This document shows, piece by piece, positions 5,663 to 60,239 of a DNA stretch of 64,000 nucleotides. Below the pieces are notes generated by a model that worked only from the letters and a program-made list of their open reading frames with translations, was not told the origin of the DNA and did not search any database. A program made the translations under genes and the position numbers. The DNA is from Bacilli bacterium (GTDB taxonomy: Bacteria; Bacillota_I; Bacilli_A; RF39; UBA660), in the NCBI GenBank assembly GCA_045541255.1, contig JAZQIU010000006.1, positions 109,504 to 173,503 of the forward strand, written 5' to 3'. Position 1 is the stretch's first letter. Each line of letters starts with the position of its first letter.

Positions 5663-6409
5663 ATGAAAAATATAACATTTAAAAATCTAGATATTACAAT
5701 TAATTCTGGTGAATTAGTTGGTATTATTGGTCCTAATGCTTCAGGTAAGACTTGTCTTTTAAGAATGATTTCTGGAAGAATACAAAATGATTATATAAAT
5801 ATAGATGAAAAAAATATAAATAATTATAGTTTAGAATATAAAAGACATAATATAGTATGTGTTTTTGATGATAATATATATAATACATGTAGTGTTAGAA
5901 ATGAATTAAAGTATTATTTAGAAAAATTATATTTAGAAAAAGAAGAAATAAATAATAGAATTGATAATTTTATTGAATATTTTAATTTAGAAAATTTAAT
6001 AGATTTAGATTTTATTAATGTTAGTACTGAGAAAAGAATTTTTATTAAAGTATTATCATTATTAATAATTGAACCTAGTTTATTTTGTATAGATGATTTA
6101 TTAACATATTTAAGTAAAGATAAAAAAATTAAAATATTAAATTATATTAAAGATAAAAATATTACTTTTTTAAATGTAACAAATGATATGGAAGAACTTT
6201 TATTATTAGATAAAGTTTTAATATTAAATAAAGGTAAAAAAGTTATTTATGATAAGACTGTAAATGTTTTAGAGAATGAGAGCTTGTTTAAAGAATTAGG
6301 TATTTCATTGCCATTTATATATGATATAAATAATATGCTTAAAGATTATGATTTAATTAATGAGAATCATATTGTATATAGAGAGTTGGTGGATTTATTA
6401 TGGAAATAA
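5663..6409 (+). CDS. ABC-type ATPase (EcfA-like, divergent)
   Basis: Walker A is GPNASGKT. The signature region is degenerate (VSTEKR) and Walker B-like reads FCIDDLL. It sits directly upstream of a second ATPase-like ORF and truA, as ecfA1-ecfA2 do in Firmicutes. Confidence 0.7.
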   Translation: MKNITFKNLDITINSGELVGIIGPNASGKTCLLRMISGRIQNDYINIDEKNINNYSLEYKRHNIVCVFDDNIYNTCSVRNELKYYLEKLYLEKEEINNRIDNFIEYFNLENLIDLDFINVSTEKRIFIKVLSLLIIEPSLFCIDDLLTYLSKDKKIKILNYIKDKNITFLNVTNDMEELLLLDKVLILNKGKKVIYDKTVNVLENESLFKELGISLPFIYDINNMLKDYDLINENHIVYRELVDLLWK

Positions 6410-7032
6410 TGTTTAGTAATAAGTCTAGTGAACTTATAAAGAAAAATACTGTAACTGGTATATATGGTGATAAAATTGATTTAGTTAAATGCGGTTTTGA
6501 GTTTGATGGTATTCTTTATGATGATGAATGGACTGTTAAAAGATTTTTAAATGGATATAAGTTAAAAATAGATGAAAGAATATTAGAAATATTTAGTGAG
6601 TTAGAAATTAGTTATAGTTTATTAAAAAGGAAAATAAAAACATTAAGTAAATCACAATTAAAATTAATTTTTTTAACATATAGTATTTTAAATAAACAAA
6701 ATATTTTAGTATTAGATTATTTTGATAAAGGGTTATCATTTAAAGTGAAAAAAAGAATTATTAATTTTTTGAAAACAAGATATAAAGGTAGTATAATTGT
6801 TATAAGTAATGATATAGTATTTTTAGATTTGTTGTGTAGTTATTTAATAGTTTTTGAAAATGATAAAATAATTTTTAATGATGAGTTTAATAATGTTTAT
6901 AAGAGTAGGGTTAAGATAGAATATCCTGAAATTATAAAATTTATAAGAGTTGCTAATAAGTCTGATGCTAAATTATCATATACTGTTGACAATAAGGAGT
7001 TGCTTAAAGATATTTATAGGAGTGTAAGATGA
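6400..7032 (+). CDS. Degenerate ABC ATPase-like protein (EcfA2 position)
   Basis: 210 aa overlapping the upstream ATPase gene. It has a signature-like LSKSQ and Walker B-like ILVLDYFD but no recognisable Walker A (GIYGDKID). Confidence 0.45.
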   Translation: MEIMFSNKSSELIKKNTVTGIYGDKIDLVKCGFEFDGILYDDEWTVKRFLNGYKLKIDERILEIFSELEISYSLLKRKIKTLSKSQLKLIFLTYSILNKQNILVLDYFDKGLSFKVKKRIINFLKTRYKGSIIVISNDIVFLDLLCSYLIVFENDKIIFNDEFNNVYKSRVKIEYPEIIKFIRVANKSDAKLSYTVDNKELLKDIYRSVR

Positions 7033-7751
7033 GATATTTAATTACTGTTTCTTATGATGGAAGCAAATACTATGGTTTTCAAAGATTAAATAAAGAAAAG
7101 TCAGTACAATGTGAGTTAGAAAGAGCGTTAAGTAAAATTAATAAATGTGAAGTTTTAGTAAAAGGAGCTGGTAGAACTGATAGAGGTGTGCATGCAAAAG
7201 GACAATGTTGTCATTTTGATTTAGATGTAAATATTCCTCCTGAACGATTAATTAATGCTGTTAATTCTTTATTGGATAAATATATTAGAGTAGTTGATTG
7301 TAAGTGTGTTGATAAAGAATTTCATGCTAGGTTTGATGTAAAAGAAAAAACTTATAAATATATTATAAATATGGGAGAGTTTGAGCCGATTAAAGAAGAT
7401 TATATTTATAATTATGGATATAAATTAAATATAAAAAATATGAAGAAAGCTAGTAGGTATTTAATAGGGAAACATTCTTATAAAGTATTTGTTAGTGGAG
7501 AAAGAGAAAATTATAACAGTGAGATTTTTAAAGTTAGCTTTGATTGCTATGATAATTATTTAGCTATAACTTTTGTTGGTAAAAGTTTTTATAGATATAT
7601 GGTTAGAAATATGGTAGGAGCTTTAATTTTGGTTGGTAGAGGTAAAATAAGTTGTGAAGAATTTAGAAATATGATAGATAGTGATGAAAATAAATATACT
7701 TATATGACTGTACCAGCTAATGGATTATATTTAGAAAGTATAAAGTATTAG
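7029..7751 (+). CDS. truA: tRNA pseudouridine(38-40) synthase
   Basis: 240 aa with the catalytic motif GAGRTDRGVHA and a YxGFQ-like N-terminus (YDGSKYYGFQ). Confidence 0.9.
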   Translation: MRYLITVSYDGSKYYGFQRLNKEKSVQCELERALSKINKCEVLVKGAGRTDRGVHAKGQCCHFDLDVNIPPERLINAVNSLLDKYIRVVDCKCVDKEFHARFDVKEKTYKYIINMGEFEPIKEDYIYNYGYKLNIKNMKKASRYLIGKHSYKVFVSGERENYNSEIFKVSFDCYDNYLAITFVGKSFYRYMVRNMVGALILVGRGKISCEEFRNMIDSDENKYTYMTVPANGLYLESIKY

Positions 7752-53725: not shown

Positions 53726-54199
53726 ATGTTATTTGAATTCAAAAACAATAATAATGATTTTTATGATATGAATTTAGATTATTTTAATTTAAATAAGTAT
53801 GATATAAAGAATAATGAATTTAAGAATTATAATAATATGAATAAAAGTGATAATTTAGATTTAGAGAATGGTTTTTATTTAGGCAATATATTTAGTGATT
53901 TGTATAAACCGTATAAAAATTTTAAACCTAAAAAAATTAATGCTTATAGTGAACAACAAAAAATGTTATTACGTATTCAAGAATTAGATTTTATTATAAA
54001 TGATTTAAATTTATATTTAGATGTATATCCTAATGATATGAAATGTTATGAAATTTTCAAAAAATATTGTTTAGAACTTGAAAGTTTAAAAAAGAAATAT
54101 GAAGAAAAATATCAAGTTTTAGAACTTATTAATGATACTAAAGGAAAGTATACATGGATAGAAGAACCATGGCCTTGGGATGGAGGTAAATATGTTTAA
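53726..54199 (+). CDS. cotJB: Spore coat-associated protein CotJB (with CotJA-like N-terminal segment)
   Basis: CotJB core QELDFIINDLNLYLDVYPNDMKCYEIFKKY...YEEKY...EPWPWD. The N-terminal GNIFSDLYKPY resembles the CotJA motif. It sits directly upstream of cotJC. Confidence 0.7.
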   Translation: MLFEFKNNNNDFYDMNLDYFNLNKYDIKNNEFKNYNNMNKSDNLDLENGFYLGNIFSDLYKPYKNFKPKKINAYSEQQKMLLRIQELDFIINDLNLYLDVYPNDMKCYEIFKKYCLELESLKKKYEEKYQVLELINDTKGKYTWIEEPWPWDGGKYV

Positions 54200-54398
54200 G
54201 TATGATAAAAAACTTCCTTATCCAGTAGATATAAAGAAAAAAGATTTAAAGATGGCAAAATATATCATAACTCAATTTGGTGGTTCTAATGGGGAGATTG
54301 CTGCAGCGTTAAGATATTATTCACAAAAGTTTAGTATGCCTACTGAAGAGGGTAAAGCATTATTAAATGATATTGCTACTGAAGAACTACTACAATAA
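54192..54398 (+). pseudogene. cotJC: cotJC (Mn-catalase-family spore coat protein), 5' fragment truncated by prophage insertion
   Basis: MFKYDKKLPYPVDIKK...FGGSNGEIAAALRYYSQKF...LLNDIATEE follows the conserved CotJC N-terminus. It then reads LLQ-stop exactly where the metal-binding ExxH segment should follow. The fragment is about 68 aa, whereas I recall full-length CotJC as about 190 aa. Confidence 0.75.
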
Positions 54399-54440
54399 GC
54401 ATATCAGTTATAAAAGCAATAAATAAAATAAGGAAAAAAG

Positions 54441-54472
54441 AGCAAAAAAAAAGGACTAGCCGAAGCTAGTTC
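54441..54472 (-). terminator. Rho-independent terminator after the endolysin gene
   Basis: Minus-strand hairpin gaactagc-ttcg-gctagtcc followed by a run of nine T. Confidence 0.65.
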
Positions 54473-54484
54473 TTTTAAATTTTA

Positions 54485-55348
54485 CTAATATAATTTAATA
54501 TTGTCCCAACGAGTAGTACCATTTTTAAAGTTAAGATTAACTTGTCTTTGAACTTCTGCATAATTAGATCCTAACGCTTTTTTACGAGCGTCGCCATTAC
54601 CGAAATCTCCTCTAATAGTTTTCTTAACTAAAGTTAAAATATCTACTGTAGGTTGTGGTTTAGGTGTTGCTGCTGGCTTAGAATTATTAGAACTTAACAT
54701 TTCATTAACTCTAGCTTGAACTTCACTATATCTGCTACCTAACGCTTTTTTACGGTCTTCTCCGTTACCATATTTACCAGCTATAACTTCCTTAGCTAAT
54801 TCGTCAACAGATTTATTAGCTATATCATTATTAGTAGTTGGTGTATTGTTTATAATTCCTATAACAGGATTTACAATACAACCTCTATAAGTATAGCCAC
54901 TACCAGCACCCCAGTTACCATTACCTTTATTACGTGTAGCAGTCCAGAAAGCCGTACTTCCGTAACCACTCTCAGCAGTTTTAACTTGAGTATCGCTATT
55001 TTTCTTAGTACAGATAGCAACGTGTCCTGCACCGTCATTACCAGATAAAGTAGCGCCTTTTTGCCATACCATAATACCACCGACAACTGGCTCTTTTACA
55101 ACTGATAATCCTAACGCGATAGCTCTTTCTATAAAGTTCTCAGCGTTACAATTTAACCAGTATTTTTCATACCCTAAATTGCACTCCTCATTAAATGCAC
55201 CGCAAGCATAACCTACACAGTTAGCTAAAACATTACAATTAGCGTCTGTTGGCTTTCCTTGAATACATGTAGAGTAACCACCGTTAGCTTTACGAATAAA
55301 ATATTTATTACCAGCTCCTGGCTTAGTTGTTCTTATATTCGTCATCAA
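54485..55348 (-). CDS. Endolysin: CHAP/NlpC-P60-like amidase-peptidase with two Cpl-7 (CW_7) cell-wall-binding repeats
   Basis: N-terminal Cys/His pair (NCVGYACG ... GHVAICT) and two C-terminal repeats GKYGNGEDRKKALGSRYSEVQARVNEML / GDFGNGDARKKALGSNYAEVQRQVNLNF. Confidence 0.85.
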   Translation of the reverse strand: MMTNIRTTKPGAGNKYFIRKANGGYSTCIQGKPTDANCNVLANCVGYACGAFNEECNLGYEKYWLNCNAENFIERAIALGLSVVKEPVVGGIMVWQKGATLSGNDGAGHVAICTKKNSDTQVKTAESGYGSTAFWTATRNKGNGNWGAGSGYTYRGCIVNPVIGIINNTPTTNNDIANKSVDELAKEVIAGKYGNGEDRKKALGSRYSEVQARVNEMLSSNNSKPAATPKPQPTVDILTLVKKTIRGDFGNGDARKKALGSNYAEVQRQVNLNFKNGTTRWDNIKLY

Positions 55349-55933: not shown

Positions 55934-56242
55934 TCACTTTCTGTGTAATTCTTCTAAATTGTCTATTCTATGGTGCGCTGATTTAGTAGACGATTCTACC
56001 GCAGATAATCTCTCGCCTAGTTGGTGTATTGTTTTATTAAAGTCTTTATTATCTAAACGTATCTCGTCAATATTTTTACTAATCATATCTAATTTTGTGT
56101 CTAGCTTAGTAGACATAGCCACGTCCTCTTTAGTCTCTTGTTTAACGTTTTTTCTACTATTCATTAAATAAGTAGCATAACCTATAATACCGCCTAGAAT
56201 AGTAAAAACTAAACCTATTGAAATCATAGTCGAACTTTCCAT
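55934..56242 (-). CDS. XhlA-like membrane/coiled-coil lysis-associated protein
   Basis: 102 aa with one TM helix plus a coiled coil (RLSAVESSTKSAHHRIDNLEE); its position before the holin matches PBSX-like modules. Confidence 0.45.
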   Translation of the reverse strand: MESSTMISIGLVFTILGGIIGYATYLMNSRKNVKQETKEDVAMSTKLDTKLDMISKNIDEIRLDNKDFNKTIHQLGERLSAVESSTKSAHHRIDNLEELHRK

Positions 56243-56775
56243 TATTCGTTATTTTCTTTACTTTCTTCTGGATTAGTAGGGAAATCTACTTCAAATGGAA
56301 AATTCTTTTGTTTAGTAATATCTCTTAATTGTTGTCTATATCTAGACCAATTACCATTTAAAACGTTTCCAAGTGAGCTAAATAAATCTTTTATTACCGA
56401 TAACATAGTTACGGCGTTAATTTCTTCTGGTACGGCTATACCTAATCTATCAATAAGGACATGTTTATCACTTTCAGCAAGTAATTTGTCTCTTATTGCT
56501 CTTATTTCTGCTGCTTTTTCTGCGATAAAATTGTTTTTAGCTAATTGTAGCCATGTATCAATATTATCGTTTAAATAAGCTTCTAAATCGTCTCTGTTGA
56601 TAATCTGCATTTTATATACGTAATAAGAATATAAAGTATATTCTGTACCGTCTTCTTCTGTTCTAGTAACTTCTTCTATGTCGTCAAAAAAAGCAACCTC
56701 AATTAGGTTGCCTTTTAATTCTCCAATTCTAAAGTTACCAGGTCTTATTGTGCTTTCTACCTTTTTTACTTTCAT
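56242..56775 (-). CDS. Tail-fibre-assembly / XkdW-like protein
   Basis: The C-terminal WSRYRQQLRDITKQKNFPFEVDFPTNP matches the W-x-x-YR-x-x-LRDIT...FP...P motif of phage tail-fibre assembly chaperones. Its start overlaps the RT 3' end by 41 nt. Confidence 0.5.
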   Translation of the reverse strand: MKVKKVESTIRPGNFRIGELKGNLIEVAFFDDIEEVTRTEEDGTEYTLYSYYVYKMQIINRDDLEAYLNDNIDTWLQLAKNNFIAEKAAEIRAIRDKLLAESDKHVLIDRLGIAVPEEINAVTMLSVIKDLFSSLGNVLNGNWSRYRQQLRDITKQKNFPFEVDFPTNPEESKENNE

Positions 56776-57799
56776 TTCTTATAACCTCCTTACACAATTT
56801 GTAATTAACATACGGTTTTATGTATTTTTGTTGATAATTAAATGAATTACAATGTTTTAACCAACCGCTGTAACTAAGCATGGCTGCTGCGTCGTGATAG
56901 GTTATATGATCTTTCTTAGCCATTTTCTTAGCACGCCTTTTAATTCTTAAGAAATTGCTTCTTCTAAGAGTAGTATACCCACGATAGAAACGATAACCTA
57001 AGAAATCAATAGGCCTAGACTCTGTTTTGAAAAGTTGCCAGTTTTCTTTAATACGTAACTTTTCTTTACTTAAGAAGTTGTCGATTTCTATTTTGATTTT
57101 TCTTAATTCTTTTTTGTTGTTCGAGAATAATACCATGTCGTCCATGTATCTTATATAATGTTTAACTTTTAATTGTTCTTTTATAAAATGATCTAGATCC
57201 TGTAAATAAAAATTCGCAAACCATTGACTCGTAAAATTGCCTATAGGTAGACCTTCCTGGCTACTGTCAATAATTAGATCAATAAGAAATAAAGTGTCTT
57301 TATCTTTTATAATCTTACGAAATTTATTTTTTAGAATCTCTTTGTCAATACTAGGGTAAAATTTCTTAATATCTATTTTTAAACAATATTTAGTATATTT
57401 TCTATCAGCTACTAATATCTTTTTTAAATGTCTCATGCCACGCATAATACCTCTATTTTTGATACTAGCGCAAGAAAACTCATACATGCCACGCATAATA
57501 AGCGGCTCTATCTGCAGCATTAAAGCCCAGTGAATAACCTGGTCTGGGTAAAAGCGCGGCTTAAAGATAATTCTTTCTTTTTTATTAGCACCGTCTCTTA
57601 TTTTCATTTCAACGTATGGACTAGGTCTATACGTTTTATCTTTTAATGCTTTTTGGATTTGTAAAGCGTAGTATGTAGGAGAGTCGAGTATTTTCTCAAC
57701 TGTCTTTCTAGATCCTTTACCTTTAGCAGCTTTATAAATAGCAGATTCAATATTGTTTAAATTTGTGATATTTTCATAAATGTTACCTTTTCTTTTCAT
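56735..57799 (-). CDS. DGR reverse transcriptase
   Basis: 354 aa with the RT motif 5 YMDD (IRYMDDMVLF) and the DGR-specific motif 4 [LIV]GxxxSQ (LPIGNFTSQWFAN). It lies 147 nt downstream of a template repeat. Confidence 0.92.
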   Translation of the reverse strand: MKRKGNIYENITNLNNIESAIYKAAKGKGSRKTVEKILDSPTYYALQIQKALKDKTYRPSPYVEMKIRDGANKKERIIFKPRFYPDQVIHWALMLQIEPLIMRGMYEFSCASIKNRGIMRGMRHLKKILVADRKYTKYCLKIDIKKFYPSIDKEILKNKFRKIIKDKDTLFLIDLIIDSSQEGLPIGNFTSQWFANFYLQDLDHFIKEQLKVKHYIRYMDDMVLFSNNKKELRKIKIEIDNFLSKEKLRIKENWQLFKTESRPIDFLGYRFYRGYTTLRRSNFLRIKRRAKKMAKKDHITYHDAAAMLSYSGWLKHCNSFNYQQKYIKPYVNYKLCKEVIRNESKKGRKHNKTW

Positions 57800-57946
57800 A
57801 ATTCCTGGTCCTTTTAAAATTCTTATATTTGCCTGCAGGTCTTTCGAGAAATTTCATAATGAAGATAAACCTACTAAACCCACCCAGAACGACTAATTTT
57901 TAGCAAGCGCTATGGAAAATGATGTGTAAGGATTTAATGATAAGTA
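57800..57946 (-). other. TR-to-RT spacer (probable 3' part of the DGR template RNA)
   Basis: Non-coding 147 nt between TR and the RT start. By analogy with the Bordetella phage DGR, this spacer is expected to be part of the RNA that primes cDNA synthesis. Confidence 0.45.
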
Positions 57947-58049
57947 GTCGAGCTCCGTTGTTCTCCCACGTATTCGAAGACGCGTTGTTAGCATTAAGAC
58001 ACCACAAGCCACAATAACTAGAGTCTACCCAACAACCGCCGACACGAGC
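57947..58049 (-). repeat. DGR template repeat (TR)
   Basis: A 103-bp match to the VR. In the 97-nt core, all 6 mismatches are at TR adenines on the coding strand. VR-frame translation ARVGGCWVDSSYCGLWCLNANNASSNTWENNGAR (6 AAY Asn codons). Confidence 0.9.
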
Positions 58050-58103
58050 TAATCGCTTAAGATAACGAAACACACACACCAAGTCCCTATTTTAATATAA
58101 GTG

Positions 58104-58206
58104 GTCGAGCTCCGTAGTTGCCGTTATAATTCGAAGACGTATCATTCAGCGTATAACACCACAAGCCACAATTAGTACCATTGAGCCAACGACCGCCGAC
58201 AAGTAC
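58104..58206 (-). repeat. Orphan DGR cassette C6 (VR/TR-like, 103 bp)
   Basis: Same length and conserved blocks as VR/TR. VR-frame translation VLVGGRWLNGTNCGLWCYTLNDTSSNYNGNYGAR, no stop, 6 Asn codons. Confidence 0.8.
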
Positions 58207-58257
58207 AAATCGTGAAAACTACGAGCACACACACCAAATCCCATTTTAATATAAGTG

Positions 58258-58360
58258 GTCGAGCTCCGATCGTAGCGTTGTAATTCGAAGACGCTTCGTT
58301 AAGGTTCCAATACCACAAGCCACACATAAGGGCGTCAGCCCAATTACCGCCGACAAGAGT
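58258..58360 (-). repeat. Orphan DGR cassette C5
   Basis: VR-frame translation TLVGGNWADALMCGLWYWNLNEASSNYNATIGAR, no stop, 5 Asn codons. Confidence 0.8.
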
Positions 58361-58419
58361 ATAAAAGAATAACTACACGACCAGAGGCCACACACCAAAT
58401 CCCAATTTTAAAATAAGTA

Positions 58420-58522
58420 GTCGAGCTCCGACGTTGATATTCGATAACGAAGACGCGTCATTAAAGTTCCAATACCACAAGCCAGCTTGAGAGGTATTGT
58501 TCCATCTACCGCCGACAAGAGC
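58420..58522 (-). repeat. Orphan DGR cassette C4
   Basis: VR-frame translation ALVGGRWNNTSQAGLWYWNFNDASSLSNINVGAR, no stop, 6 Asn codons. Confidence 0.8.
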
Positions 58523-58579
58523 GAATAAAGACTAAACGTTCGAAGCGCACACATCAAATCCCTAATTTTGATATAAGCG

Positions 58580-58682
58580 GTCGAGCTCCGACGTTGTTCC
58601 AAGATTCCGAAGACGCGTTTTCAATAGTAAGAGCCCACAAGCCACTACAACTGACGTCCCAGAAGCTACCGCCGACAAAAAG
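58580..58682 (-). repeat. Orphan DGR cassette C3
   Basis: VR-frame translation LFVGGSFWDVSCSGLWALTIENASSESWNNVGAR, no stop, 3 Asn codons. Confidence 0.8.
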
Positions 58683-58736
58683 CAGTAACAGAAATACGGA
58701 GCCATACACACCAAATCCCAAATTTTAATATAAGTA

Positions 58737-58839
58737 GTCGAGCTCCGACGCCTGTACCATTAGCCGAAGAAAGCTCTTCAAAGTGCCAACACCACAAGCC
58801 ACAACGAAGCGCATTATTCCAATTGCCGCCGACAAGAGC
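58737..58839 (-). repeat. Orphan DGR cassette C2
   Basis: VR-frame translation ALVGGNWNNALRCGLWCWHFEELSSANGTGVGAR, no stop, 4 Asn codons. Confidence 0.8.
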
Positions 58840-58894
58840 GAACGCTGAGAGTTAGCACGAACTATACACACCAAATCCCATTTTAATATAAGTG

Positions 58895-58997
58895 GTCGAG
58901 CTCCGACGTCGGCTACTGACTCAGAAGAATCTAGCAGCAGCAAATAACTAAATAATCCAGAACGATTATCAATACGCCAAAGACCGCCGACAAGAGC
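58895..58997 (-). repeat. Orphan DGR cassette C1
   Basis: VR-frame translation ALVGGLWRIDNRSGLFSYLLLLDSSESVADVGAR, no stop, 1 Asn codon. This is the most divergent copy (SGLF instead of CGLW). Confidence 0.75.
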
Positions 58998-59051
58998 GGA
59001 ATCAGTAGACCAACGCGAACATTACACACCATGCCCTAAAAAATAAATTTA

Positions 59052-59137
59052 GCGGCTCCGACTACAGTCGGTATAATAATTATTTTTATTTATGGGAGGC
59101 TGGCCGCCCCCAAACCCCCGCTAACTGGTTTTAAGAA
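59052..59137 (-). promoter_or_regulatory. VR-specific 3' flank: GC-rich island plus small hairpin (candidate IMH/target-recognition element)
   Basis: Directly after the stop codon lies cgggggtttgggggcggccagcctccc (59094-59121, coding strand), very GC-rich in an AT-rich context. A hairpin CCGAC-TGTA-GTCGG follows at 59058-59071. The segment is absent downstream of TR and of all six cassettes. Confidence 0.5.
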
Positions 59138-60239
59138 GTCGAGCTCCGCTGACCTCCCACGTAAGCGAAGACGCGTTGTTAGCATTAAGACACCACAAGC
59201 CACAATAACTAGAGTCCACCCAACAACCGCCGACAAGAGCGATTCTATTTCCTGGATTACACCAGTAATAATCTGTAGTGTAAGTATCACTACTACCACC
59301 TACTTTAGTAGGGAAAGCAACTAACGGATTCTTAGAATCGTAACCTAACTCTGTAATATAACTACCACCAGTAGAACTATTTACATAGCCAACTTTCTCA
59401 TAATCTCCGTCAAAGACGTCGCTTGCGTAAGAAGTAGGATTATAACAGATATAAGCTTCATATTCTGATATATTAACACCGTCTAAGAATTGCCATATAT
59501 TACCGAATATATCTTCAATTCCACGATAGATAACAGATCCTTTATCAGTACCTGTAGCACTTCCAGATTTCATACCTAAACTATTGCAGCCACCACTATT
59601 TAAAGCAGCAGTATTGCTTCCGTTAGTATAACCTGGTCCTAATTTTGACTGAGAATTATAATCAGCATATTCAACTAAATATAATAATTGAATTAGGAAA
59701 TAATGCCAGTCTAATTGGTGCCAGCCACTACCTAGATTTTTAGCGTATGTTCTAAAGTCTGCTATAGTTTTACTTACTAAAGGAGCATAACCACTACGAC
59801 TATAAACTCCGTCGCTTGATCCAGACATAGTATAACGTCCGATCATAAATTCTTTACTTCTAGTAAAGCCACTTAAATTATCTTTAGAGATAAGTACATA
59901 TTCGTAACCGTAAGACACATACCTCTTATAATAGAATTCTGGTATTATTGTCATTACTTGACCGTTACTACCTGTAAAGGAAAAATTAGCGTCGCCATAA
60001 TAAGCAACTATCTTTTTATTAGTATTATCATAATTACAAGTGATTATATCACTCCATGGGTAAATACTATCAAAGTCGTTTCTTACTGCAGTAGTACCAA
60101 CTTGAGCGTTAGCTACTAAACCTACGGCGTCCTCAATTCTTTCCCAAGCAGACGAAGCAGAACTTATTTTACGTCTTACTCCGTATACTTTACTTAAATT
60201 GTTCGATTTCTTTTCTCGAACATTTATTACACCTAACAT
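59121..60239 (-). CDS. DGR target protein: tail fibre / receptor-binding protein with C-terminal lectin (FGE-sulfatase-like) fold
   Basis: 372 aa in the tail-fibre position. It carries the FGE/CLec-like motif YRGIEDIFGNIWQFLDG, and its C-terminus GGCW...CGLWC...GARL carries the VR. Confidence 0.88.
   Translation of the reverse strand: MLGVINVREKKSNNLSKVYGVRRKISSASSAWERIEDAVGLVANAQVGTTAVRNDFDSIYPWSDIITCNYDNTNKKIVAYYGDANFSFTGSNGQVMTIIPEFYYKRYVSYGYEYVLISKDNLSGFTRSKEFMIGRYTMSGSSDGVYSRSGYAPLVSKTIADFRTYAKNLGSGWHQLDWHYFLIQLLYLVEYADYNSQSKLGPGYTNGSNTAALNSGGCNSLGMKSGSATGTDKGSVIYRGIEDIFGNIWQFLDGVNISEYEAYICYNPTSYASDVFDGDYEKVGYVNSSTGGSYITELGYDSKNPLVAFPTKVGGSSDTYTTDYYWCNPGNRIALVGGCWVDSSYCGLWCLNANNASSLTWEVSGARLLKTS
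59138..59240 (-). repeat. DGR variable repeat (VR), 3' end of the target gene
   Basis: 103-bp counterpart of the TR, encoding ALVGGCWVDSSYCGLWCLNANNASSLTWEVSGAR. It differs from the TR at adenine positions only within the core. Confidence 0.9.

What the first reader, a model, noticed from the sequence alone, without database searches (positions are those of the whole stretch)
57947..59240. Six orphan VR/TR-like cassettes in tandem between VR and TR: a possible multi-template or variant-archive DGR
There are eight same-orientation copies of one 103-bp module. They are VR, C1 58895-58997, C2 58737-58839, C3 58580-58682, C4 58420-58522, C5 58258-58360, C6 58104-58206 and TR. Every copy is exactly 103 bp and shares the coding-strand blocks (C)TTGTCGGCGG, GGCTTGTGG, TCTTCG and GGAGCTCGAC. 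Every copy translates without a stop in the VR frame to (L)VGG-x-W-x5-CGLW-x7-SS-x6-GAR, which amounts to about 200 orphan codons without a stop in AT-rich DNA. The scaffold codons are kept, while the codons that are hypervariable in lectin-fold VRs differ between cassettes at all three codon positions. The cassettes are therefore not simple adenine-mutagenised copies of the present TR. Start-to-start spacings are 157, 154, 162, 160, 157 and 158 bp, so the array is not a repeat protein. The canonical DGR layout is target-VR-(avd)-TR-RT, and I do not recall any described DGR with a cassette array in this position. I see three hypotheses. (i) The cassettes are alternative TRs co-transcribed toward the RT. 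(ii) They are silent donor cassettes that replace the TR or VR by recombination, as pilS or vls cassettes do, giving coarse scaffold switching on top of fine A-mutagenesis. (iii) They are an archive of earlier VR states.
Basis: partly seen in the sequence, partly recalled or inferred. Interest (0 to 1): 0.95.

Follow-up and report, generated by a model that had tools for sequence, protein, structure and literature searches.

The report
Multi-template diversity-generating retroelement array
A gut-bacterial prophage keeps six extra silent templates beside the usual single one for hypermutating its tail-fibre tip, and public metagenomes show the same phage rewriting that tip from different templates, so it draws on a library of scaffolds instead of one.

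Summary
On the minus strand lie a tail-protein gene ending in a VR, six 103-nt cassettes at about 157-nt spacing, a TR, an RT-18 RNA motif and a DGR reverse transcriptase. The cassettes are working alternative templates, not orphans. Twelve public assemblies carry a 100% identical RT. In them the VR is an adenine-mutagenised copy of the RT-proximal TR, of C6, C5 or C4, or a chimera of two or three templates. One assembly has the same 1341-nt array to the base as the window, yet its VR comes from C4. Over 43 distinct related loci with 3-9 copies, VRs differ from their best parents at 35% of A sites and 2% of other sites. All 170 distinct silent copies are open in the VR frame, and pN/pS is 0.53 in that frame only. 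Each unit also carries a copy of the 5' strand of a long-range helix supported by covariation. Its single 3' strand lies just after the TR and is followed by a stem-loop and an A-run. This matches the "cPRT Stop" of the Bordetella phage DGR RNA. I infer that alternative pairing of this helix selects the template. I found no earlier description of such an array. Verdict: a new variant of a known kind, of high interest.

The parts
59121..60239 (-). DGR target gene: 372-aa phage tail protein with the VR at its C-terminus
   Evidence: ORF. PHROG phrog_5302 'tail protein', E 5e-67. No Pfam hit.
59138..59240 (-). VR (variable repeat). In this window it is an A-mutagenised copy of the RT-proximal TR.
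   Evidence: Against the TR: 6 of 20 A sites changed and 1 of 83 non-A.
59094..59119 (-). G-rich tract plus GC hairpin just after the VR and stop codon. It is a target-site mark, found only after VRs and never after cassettes or the TR.
   Evidence: The analogy to the IMH and hairpin of phage BPP-1 is from established knowledge (PMC3240598 title and abstract).
59058..59071 (-). Second hairpin (CCGACTGTAGTCGG), followed by a T-rich tract, between the target gene and the array
   Evidence: Function untested.
59024..59036 (-). P1 5'-strand copy 1 (GGGCATGGTGTGT, deviant), upstream of C1
58895..58997 (-). Cassette C1. It is A-poor and degenerate (lacks GGCTTGTGG) and was never seen as a VR parent.
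58866..58879 (-). P1 5'-strand copy 2 (GGGATTTGGTGTGT), upstream of C2
   Evidence: Duplex with the P1 3' strand: -16.0 kcal/mol.
58737..58839 (-). Cassette C2. Intact scaffold, but not yet seen as a parent.
58706..58719 (-). P1 5'-strand copy 3, upstream of C3
58580..58682 (-). Cassette C3. It is the parent of the 3' half of a second VR allele in L248.
58549..58562 (-). P1 5'-strand copy 4 (GGGATTTGATGTGT), upstream of C4
58420..58522 (-). Cassette C4. It is the parent of the VR in L249, L246 and L241 and of parts of the VR in L242, L244 and L245.
58390..58403 (-). P1 5'-strand copy 5, upstream of C5
58258..58360 (-). Cassette C5. It is the parent of the VR in L247. Its allele K11 is the parent in L250 and of parts of the VR in L242 and L245.
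58229..58242 (-). P1 5'-strand copy 6, upstream of C6
58104..58206 (-). Cassette C6. It is the parent of the VR in L001. Its allele K14/K24 is the parent in L243 and L002.
58074..58087 (-). P1 5'-strand copy 7 (GGGACTTGGTGTGT), upstream of the TR
57947..58049 (-). RT-proximal TR, the seventh template and the parent of this window's VR
57928..57946 (-). AT-rich linker TACTTATCATTAAATCCTT between the TR and the P1 3' strand. It is the presumed place of the priming strand. Every cassette has a similar 15-nt start (YACTTATATTAAAAT).
   Evidence: The priming role is inferred by analogy to BPP-1; I could not show a template:primer duplex.
57914..57927 (-). P1 3' strand ACACATCATTTTCC, present as a single copy
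   Evidence: Covariation with the 5' strand: 96.8% of cells paired, 7 of 13 pairs changed on both sides, 0 of 500 shuffles as good.
57897..57912 (-). Short stem-loop UAGC-GCUU-GCUA followed by an A-run. With P1 it gives the duplex + stem-loop + adenosines layout of the BPP-1 'cPRT Stop'.
   Evidence: Compensatory stem changes among loci are visible (TAGC/GCTA, CAGC/GCTG, TTGCC/GGCAA). BPP-1 comparison.
57822..57912 (-). RT-18 RNA motif (Rfam RF03021), one copy, between the TR and the RT gene
   Evidence: 60.2 bits against a gathering score of 41.3, E 1e-9.
56735..57799 (-). DGR reverse transcriptase, 354 aa, with the IGNFTSQ and YMDD motifs
   Evidence: RVT_1, E 7e-19. phrog_1423, E 4e-112. 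Sequence.
56242..56775 (-). Tail-fibre assembly protein gene that overlaps the RT 3' end. It is context, not Avd.
   Evidence: Phage_tail_APC. phrog_4912.

Best explanation
This is a diversity-generating retroelement with a tandem library of templates (here C1-C6 plus the RT-proximal TR) that all feed one variable region at the tip of a phage tail protein. SHOWN: several cassettes of one unchanged array are reverse transcribed with adenine-specific errors and copied into the same VR. Successive or mixed events give mosaic VRs, with junctions mostly at the conserved GGCTTGTGG block. The phage therefore gets coarse scaffold switching, fine A-mutagenesis and chimerism together. Purifying selection keeps the silent cassettes open and protein-like in the VR frame. 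SHOWN: in this RT family the DGR RNA has a long-range helix, P1. Its 5' strand is GGGAYTTGRTGTGT, about 25 nt upstream of the template. Its 3' strand is ACACATCATTTTCC, just downstream of the template, followed by a stem-loop, an A-run and the rest of the RT-18 motif. In arrays every unit carries its own 5' strand, while the 3' strand and RT-18 exist once. INFERRED: P1 is the counterpart of the BPP-1 'cPRT Stop' duplex, which is required for cis-primed reverse transcription and ends the cDNA. Each unit is then a complete 'upstream half' (stop strand, template, conserved 3' end GGAGCTCGAC-YACTTAT), and all units share one 'downstream half' (primer region, P1 3' strand, stem-loop, RT-18). Which 5' strand pairs with the single 3' strand decides which cassette is copied. 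The cDNA stops at that unit's own helix, so it holds exactly one cassette. The GC-rich tract and hairpin found only after the VR make the VR the recipient.
For: (1) Same array, different parent. W and L249 are identical over 1341 nt from the VR end through the array into the spacer. W's VR derives from the TR (6 A, 1 non-A change). L249's VR derives from C4 (9 A, 1 non-A). L001 has 2 mismatches in those 1341 nt and its VR derives from C6. L247's VR derives from C5 (9 A, 0 non-A within the C5-assigned segment; one edge difference at the 5' end). (2) Over 43 distinct loci with a VR and an array, 299 of 855 A sites are changed against 70 of 3561 non-A sites (Fisher p 4e-163), and 25 of 43 have zero non-A mismatches. 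In the control, silent cassettes explained by their neighbours have a median of 12 non-A mismatches (n=268). (3) Chimeric VRs occur with 0 non-A mismatches (L008, L009, L097, L242, L244, L245), and 7 of 13 breakpoints lie at columns 37-39. (4) 170 of 170 silent copies are open in the VR frame, against 21% of shuffles. pN/pS is 0.53 in that frame and 1.00 and 1.22 in the other two. (5) Arrays of 3-9 copies are conserved in a subclade of RTs at about 76% identity or more, from human, mouse, rabbit and ruminant gut MAGs; more distant relatives have the canonical VR+TR. (6) P1 covariation. A P1 5' strand was found for 133 of 144 distinct units; 102 of them make at least 12 of 14 pairs, against 5-6 for control windows. 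P1 is the best-conserved part of the unit: within-array identity is 0.91, against 0.62 for cassettes and 0.38 for the adjacent 20 nt. Each copy gives a -15 to -16.5 kcal/mol duplex. (7) RT-18 is present once only. (8) The BPP-1 RNA has an upstream:downstream duplex plus stem-loop plus adenosines that is essential for priming and stops the cDNA, and putative counterparts were predicted in 207 DGRs from distant taxa (bioRxiv 10.1101/2023.10.23.563531).
Against: There are no RNA or cDNA data, so transcription of the array, the cDNA start and stop points and the role of P1 in template choice are all inferred. All array loci share the same P1 3' sequence, so covariation for P1 comes from the family as a whole, not from internal copies. 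I could not find a convincing template:primer duplex in the AT-rich linker. No avd gene lies near the element, so the BPP-1 analogy may be incomplete. A 1246-nt thermodynamic fold pairs the 3' strand with one P1 copy or another (summed probability 0.995), but it favours distal copies that are seldom or never used, so it does not predict usage. The VRs come from related phages and are not fully independent samples. L001's VR has 3 non-A changes. C1 and C2 were never seen in use.
Confidence: 0.75

Rival explanations
1. The cassettes are used, but by read-through. Reverse transcription always starts at the RT-proximal TR and runs on through the spacers into upstream cassettes. The long cDNA then integrates wherever its repeated conserved blocks (GGAGCTCGAC, GGCTTGTGG, GTCGGCGG) align with the VR.
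For: Every cassette shares the end blocks needed for homology-guided integration. Use falls with distance from the RT: 9/37, 10/37, 10/34, 13/33, then 3/27, 3/27, 2/21 and 0/10.
Against: Under read-through the internal P1 5' strands would be useless or harmful, yet they are the most conserved part of each unit. In chimeras the 5' parent lies upstream of the 3' parent in only 4 of 13 cases, which does not fit a single long cDNA with loop-out. The first four templates are used about equally rather than in steep decline. In BPP-1 the cDNA ends at the stop duplex.
Confidence: 0.15
2. DNA-level gene conversion, like pilS or vls. A cassette replaces the TR or the VR by homologous recombination, and ordinary single-template DGR mutagenesis follows.
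For: The RT-proximal slot and the cassette sets differ among phages with a 100% identical RT (K07 against K12, K05 against K11), so cassettes are reshuffled by recombination over evolutionary time. Conserved spacers and blocks offer crossover sites.
Against: W and L249 have base-identical arrays but VRs from different parents. The VR differs from the cassette almost only at the cassette's adenines, which requires reverse transcription of that cassette. A later round from the TR would overwrite the VR with TR sequence. A transient rearranged genome that donates its VR back to an intact one is possible but unparsimonious.
Confidence: 0.05
3. The cassettes are an archive of past VR states, or neutral tandem duplicates of the TR that are decaying.
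For: VR-proximal cassettes are poorer in A and in AAY codons: mean AAY is 2.1 at position 1 against 4.7-4.9 at positions 5-8. C1 is degenerate. Two cassettes, L008_3 and L172_2, are A-only mutagenised copies of another cassette.
Against: The direction of change is cassette A to VR N, with several different VRs descending from one cassette. 170 of 170 frames are open and pN/pS is 0.53. Only 2 of 170 copies look mutagenised. Synonymous AAT/AAC exchanges between orthologous cassettes keep the mutable codons.
Confidence: 0.03
4. The extra cassettes mainly serve other, remote VRs in other target genes of the phage or host, and their use on this VR is incidental.
For: DGRs with remote targets and surveys that list two or more TRs exist (PMC5758913; PMC11661182). 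The window covers only part of the prophage.
Against: There is no further match to the cassette profile or to any cassette with A-to-N allowed in the 64-kb window. The adjacent VR demonstrably uses at least five of the seven templates.
Confidence: 0.05

Closest known systems
Canonical phage DGR (Bordetella phage BPP-1: mtd-VR, avd, TR, spacer, brt)
   Same: A DGR-type RT with the IGxxxSQ and YMDD motifs. Adenine-specific TR-to-VR information transfer. The VR at the C-terminus of a tail or receptor-binding protein. A GC-rich tract and hairpin after the VR. A structured RNA between the TR and the RT. An upstream:downstream duplex plus stem-loop plus adenosines flanking the template, as in the cPRT Stop.
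   Different: There are up to eight templates in tandem for one VR instead of one. The VR is rewritten from different scaffolds and as chimeras. The 5' strand of the stop duplex is multiplied with each template. No avd gene is nearby. The TR-to-duplex linker is very short (19 nt here, against about 58 nt of Sp in BPP-1).
[quoted passage not shown]
   Same: More than one TR-like repeat near one RT.
   Different: Those reports only count such loci, or describe each TR with its own VRs (for example the Stenotrophomonas locus with 2 TRs and 6 VRs). They give no tandem array, no evidence that several TRs rewrite one VR and no RNA mechanism. Some may be unrecognised examples of the present type.
Silent-cassette gene conversion systems (Neisseria pilE/pilS, Borrelia vlsE/vls, chicken Ig pseudo-V genes)
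   Same: A library of promoterless, frame-preserving partial copies beside or near one expression site. Mosaic products. Conserved blocks that frame the variable segments.
   Different: Transfer here goes through RNA and an error-prone RT (A-specific changes), not through RecA-type DNA recombination. The donors stay unchanged, and the copy is mutagenised on the way in.
RT-18 RNA motif (Rfam RF03021)
   Same: The spacer between the TR and the RT matches the family above its gathering score.
   Different: The Rfam model starts at the stem-loop. The long-range P1 helix to a strand upstream of the template, and its multiplication in arrays, are not part of the model.

Membership tests
Diversity-generating retroelement (DGR) | Reverse transcriptase of the DGR type | tested here: met
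   RVT_1, E 7e-19. PHROG reverse transcriptase, E 4e-112. IGNFTSQ (the [ILV]GxxxSQ signature, recalled from knowledge of DGR RTs) and YMDD are read in the translation. No RT phylogeny was made.
Diversity-generating retroelement (DGR) | A TR/VR pair that differs (almost) only at template adenines | tested here: met
   Window: 6 of 20 A sites against 1 of 83 non-A. Family-wide: 35% against 2%.
Diversity-generating retroelement (DGR) | VR inside the 3' end of a protein-coding target gene, TR non-coding and next to the RT | tested here: met
   The target is a tail protein.
Diversity-generating retroelement (DGR) | VR lies in a C-type-lectin-type fold | tested here: inconclusive
   No Pfam hit. No PDB sequence hit. 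A profile against the PDB gives only a weak collinear hit to 5vf4_A, E 0.07. Single-sequence AlphaFold is unusable, pLDDT 32. The VGG-W...GLW...GAR motif resembles lectin-fold VRs, but that is from memory only.
Diversity-generating retroelement (DGR) | Target-site marks at the VR 3' end (GC-rich IMH-like tract and hairpin) that are absent from the template | tested here: met
   GGGGGTTTGGGGGCGGCCAGCCTCCC follows every VR and no cassette or TR. Its function was not tested.
Diversity-generating retroelement (DGR) | Accessory protein Avd (or HRDC or MSL) in the cassette | tested here: not met
   No such gene lies within about 4-6 kb on either side, in the window or in related loci. The rest of the phage lies outside the window. 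Not all DGRs carry avd (68% are in the avd architecture).
Diversity-generating retroelement (DGR) | One template repeat per VR (canonical layout target-VR-(avd)-TR-RT) | tested here: not met
   Seven templates serve one VR here, and 2-8 in relatives. This is the respect in which it is a new variant.
cPRT-Stop-type DGR RNA architecture (BPP-1) | A duplex between a segment upstream of the template and the spacer downstream of it, followed by a short stem-loop and unpaired adenosines | tested here: met
   P1 covariation. Stem-loop and A-run. Definition. A functional role in priming and termination is not testable with these tools.
cPRT-Stop-type DGR RNA architecture (BPP-1) | A template:primer duplex next to the stop duplex, with priming from an internal adenosine 2'-OH | tested here: inconclusive
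   No convincing conserved pairing was found in the AT-rich linker.
Silent-cassette gene conversion (pilS/vls type) | Donor-to-expression-site transfer by DNA homologous recombination, with faithful copies of donor segments | tested here: not met
   The copies carry adenine-specific substitutions relative to the donor.

The most novel reading that the evidence does not exclude
The element is a natural template-selection device. One reverse transcriptase and one downstream RNA module are shared by up to eight upstream modules (stop-helix strand plus template). Alternative long-range RNA pairing picks which scaffold is copied, mutagenised and written into the tail-fibre tip. Partial or switched events splice scaffolds together. 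This is an RNA-programmed counterpart of segment choice plus somatic hypermutation, and it could be re-engineered as a multiplex DGR editor.
Probability: 0.5. Interest if true: 0.95.

Novelty: new variant of a known kind. Interest (0 to 1): 0.9.

Why it matters
DGRs are thought to explore sequence space around a single fixed scaffold set by one TR. Here a phage lineage common in mammalian gut Bacilli multiplies that space by holding several divergent scaffolds and recombining them. That should widen the range of receptors its tail fibre can be retargeted to. It shows that a DGR RT can use templates hundreds of nucleotides away from its binding RNA. It gives a natural experiment on what defines a template: a stop-helix strand plus a conserved 3' end. 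It also points to a design for multiplexed DGR-based directed evolution. Finally, DGR finders that expect one TR per VR will mis-annotate or discard such loci, so the type may be under-counted.

Tried and rejected
The phage GenBank collection held nothing similar beyond RT fragments. I searched for cognate VRs of C1-C6 in the window and found none. A scan for unit-specific promoters found no sigma-70-like site in the spacers on the coding strand, and counts were not above shuffles. The 'terminator-like' hits there are only the GTCGGAGCTCGAC ends. I tried to find a template:primer duplex by folding the TR 3' end plus linker in 73 loci and saw no consistent pairing. I tested the order of parents in chimeras against the single long cDNA idea, and the order constraint is not met. 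I tested whether cassettes are mutagenised copies of one another, and this is rare, 2 of 170. For the target fold, the Pfam, PDB sequence and PDB profile searches and single-sequence AlphaFold all failed to give a usable answer. I ran no further search on it, because the fold does not bear on the finding. The full-length RNA partition function supports P1 pairing, but its split among copies is not credible at 1.2 kb. Eight full-text literature queries and eleven papers read turned up no description of a TR array that feeds one VR.
Full report
1. WHAT IS IN THE SEQUENCE

Everything lies on the minus strand. A 372-aa tail-protein gene (59121-60239; PHROG tail protein) ends in a 103-nt VR (59138-59240). 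After the stop codon come a G-rich tract with a GC hairpin (59094-59119) and a second hairpin.

Six 103-nt cassettes follow: C1 58895-58997, C2 58737-58839, C3 58580-58682, C4 58420-58522, C5 58258-58360 and C6 58104-58206. Then come the TR (57947-58049), a 147-nt spacer and a 354-aa reverse transcriptase (56735-57799; RVT_1; IGNFTSQ and YMDD motifs). A tail-fibre assembly gene follows.

The one correction is that C1 lacks the GGCTTGTGG and TCTTCG blocks. The TR and VR differ at six adenines plus one edge base, so this is a genuine DGR. None of C1-C6 has a cognate VR anywhere in the window.

2. THE CASSETTES ARE USED

I scanned three public collections with the RT and looked up the exact RT protein. 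This gave 250 loci. A profile of the eight copies finds arrays of 3-9 copies in 59 of them. All of these belong to the closer relatives, with RT identity of about 76% or more. More distant relatives have the ordinary VR+TR layout.

Twelve assemblies carry a 100% identical RT.
- L249 is identical to the window over 1341 nt, from the VR end through the whole array into the spacer. Its VR is nevertheless a copy of C4 with nine adenine changes and one other, while the window's VR is a copy of the RT-proximal TR.
- L001 has 2 mismatches in those 1341 nt, and its VR derives from C6.
- L247's VR derives from C5. L246 and L241 derive from C4. L243 derives from the C6 allele and L250 from the C5 allele.
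- L242, L244 and L245 are mosaics of two or three templates.
- L248 carries two VR alleles in one scaffold.

I fitted a Viterbi mosaic model to all 43 distinct loci that have both a VR and an array. It leaves 299 of 855 template adenines changed against 70 of 3561 other bases (Fisher p 4e-163). In 25 of the 43 loci there is no non-adenine mismatch at all. When silent cassettes are 'explained' in the same way by their neighbours, the median is 12 non-adenine mismatches (n=268), so the fit is not a product of having many parents to choose from.

Because the changes sit at the cassette's adenines, and several different VRs descend from one cassette, the direction is cassette to VR and the route is reverse transcription of the cassette.

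Assembly artefacts are unlikely. The copies share exact runs of at most about 14 nt, far below assembler k-mers, and misassembly cannot create adenine specificity. This last point is inference.

3. THE CASSETTES ARE UNDER SELECTION

All 170 distinct silent copies are open in the VR frame. The other two frames are open in 102 and 4 copies, and shuffles are open 21% of the time. Between closely related cassettes pN/pS is 0.53 in the VR frame and 1.00 and 1.22 in the other frames (the pairs are not independent, so I give no p-value).

Cassettes seen in use have more adenines and more AAY codons than the rest. Use by distance from the RT (0 = the TR) is 9/37, 10/37, 10/34, 13/33, 3/27, 3/27, 2/21 and 0/10. 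VR-proximal cassettes such as C1 are poorer in AAY codons and may be spent. Only two cassettes of 170 are themselves adenine-mutagenised copies of another cassette. The 'archive of old VRs' idea therefore fails for the array as a whole.

4. HOW A TEMPLATE MIGHT BE CHOSEN

Rfam places one RT-18 motif (RF03021; 60 bits, E 1e-9) between the TR and the RT, and none in the cassette spacers.

Comparing the canonical relatives showed a conserved GGGAYTTGRTGTGT about 25-30 nt upstream of the TR. It is complementary to ACACATCATTTTCC, which lies a short AT-rich linker downstream of the TR. Across 110 loci (48 distinct strand pairs) the two strands covary. Examples are GATGTGC/GCACATC, GATATGT/ACATATC, AGTATGT/ACATACT and ATAACGCGC/GCGCGTTAT. 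Of the cells, 96.8% are paired, 7 of 13 pairs change on both sides, and no shuffle or slid register comes near.

The 3' strand is followed at once by a short stem-loop with compensatory changes and by an A-run, which together form the start of RT-18.

This is the layout that Handa et al. describe for the Bordetella phage DGR RNA. There an avd:Sp duplex upstream and downstream of the TR, a short stem-loop and unpaired adenosines form the 'cPRT Stop'. It is required for cis-primed reverse transcription and ends the cDNA, and putative counterparts were predicted in 207 DGRs from distant taxa.

In the arrays every unit has its own copy of the 5' strand.
- The window has seven copies (59024-59036, 58866-79, 58706-19, 58549-62, 58390-403, 58229-42 and 58074-87). 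The six standard copies tested each give -15 to -16.5 kcal/mol with the single 3' strand at 57914-57927; the deviant first copy was not tested.
- A 5' strand was found for 133 of 144 distinct units. Of those 133, 102 keep at least 12 of 14 pairs, against 5-6 for neighbouring windows.
- This strand is the best-conserved part of the unit. Its within-array identity is 0.91, against 0.72 for the AT linker, 0.62 for the cassette and 0.38 for the next 20 nt.

I therefore infer that a unit is a complete upstream half of a DGR RNA: stop strand, template and the conserved 3' end GGAGCTCGAC-YACTTAT. All units share one downstream half. The choice of 5' strand that pairs with the single 3' strand selects the template and bounds the cDNA to one cassette.

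The GC tract and hairpin, found only after VRs, would make the VR the recipient.

Chimeras could come from successive partial homing events, since 3'-biased conversion is known for BPP-1 (this is from my own knowledge), or from template switching at the conserved block. Seven of 13 breakpoints lie at columns 37-39, next to GGCTTGTGG. The 5' parent lies upstream of the 3' parent in only 4 of 13 cases, which argues against a single read-through cDNA with loop-out.

5. WHAT IS NOT SHOWN

There are no transcript or cDNA data. I could not identify the primer:template pairing. No avd gene is near the element. No promoter-like sites lie in the spacers. The 1.2-kb thermodynamic fold pairs the 3' strand with some P1 copy (summed probability 0.995), but its preference among copies is not credible. 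The fold of the target's C-terminus could not be established.

6. COMPARISON AND NOVELTY

The element meets the defining DGR features, with two exceptions: the accessory gene and the one-template rule. It works like a silent-cassette variation system, but through RNA and an error-prone RT.

[quoted passage not shown] The large surveys and mechanistic papers I read do not describe tandem template arrays that feed one VR.

I rate it a new variant of a known kind, with high interest. The multi-template use is directly supported by natural variation. The RNA-switch mechanism is a specific and testable inference.

Noticed in passing
window 54180-54485: The prophage appears to be inserted in the sporulation gene cotJC. 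The ORF 54180-54398(+) is only the first 72 aa of a Mn-catalase/CotJC and abuts the endolysin end of the prophage. In other assemblies of the same phage the endolysin is followed instead by a 721-aa serine recombinase, which is the free or circular junction. This is reminiscent of sporulation-gene intervening elements.
   Followed up: partly
L248:about 2450-2700 (ERZ28654267 scaffold_1321): One scaffold holds two VR alleles joined by a run of N, which lengthens the target ORF to 404 aa. One allele is a C5-allele/C3 chimera and the other derives from the RT-proximal TR. This points to VR heterogeneity within one sample.
   Followed up: partly
L008:5574-5676 and L172 copy 2: Two silent cassettes are adenine-only mutagenised copies of another cassette: L008_3 from L008_1 (10 A, 0 other changes) and L172_2 from L102_2 (8 A, 1 other). 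This suggests occasional off-target homing into the array, or capture of a VR, which would erode templates.
   Followed up: partly
L008:5677-5720, L009:5678-5720, L013:5677-5720: The spacer after the third cassette of this sub-lineage contains ATACACAT, a partial P1 3' strand, immediately before the next P1 5' strand. It looks like a scar of the duplication that built the array, and it could form a local hairpin.
   Followed up: no
L241-L250, about 6260-7320 (window 54485-55348): Phages with a 100% identical RT carry endolysins with different catalytic modules (CHAP against Peptidase_M23) on the same CW_7 wall-binding repeats. This is module swapping at the lysis end.
   Followed up: no
window 57822-57927: Rfam's RT-18 model begins at the stem-loop. 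The covarying long-range helix P1, to a strand upstream of the template, lies just outside the model and is not represented, so RT-18 is probably the downstream half of a larger DGR RNA structure.
   Followed up: yes
window 58895-58997: C1 is degenerate: it encodes GLF instead of GLW, has a run of leucine codons, few AAY codons and a deviant upstream P1 strand. Its position in related arrays is occupied by quite different A-poor cassettes (K08, K09, K15, K19), so the VR-proximal end of the array turns over or decays fastest.
   Followed up: partly
window 56242-57799 and flanks: No avd-like gene lies next to this DGR. The RT is followed, with a 41-nt overlap, by a tail-fibre assembly protein gene, so the DGR is wedged between a tail fibre and its chaperone.
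   Followed up: partly
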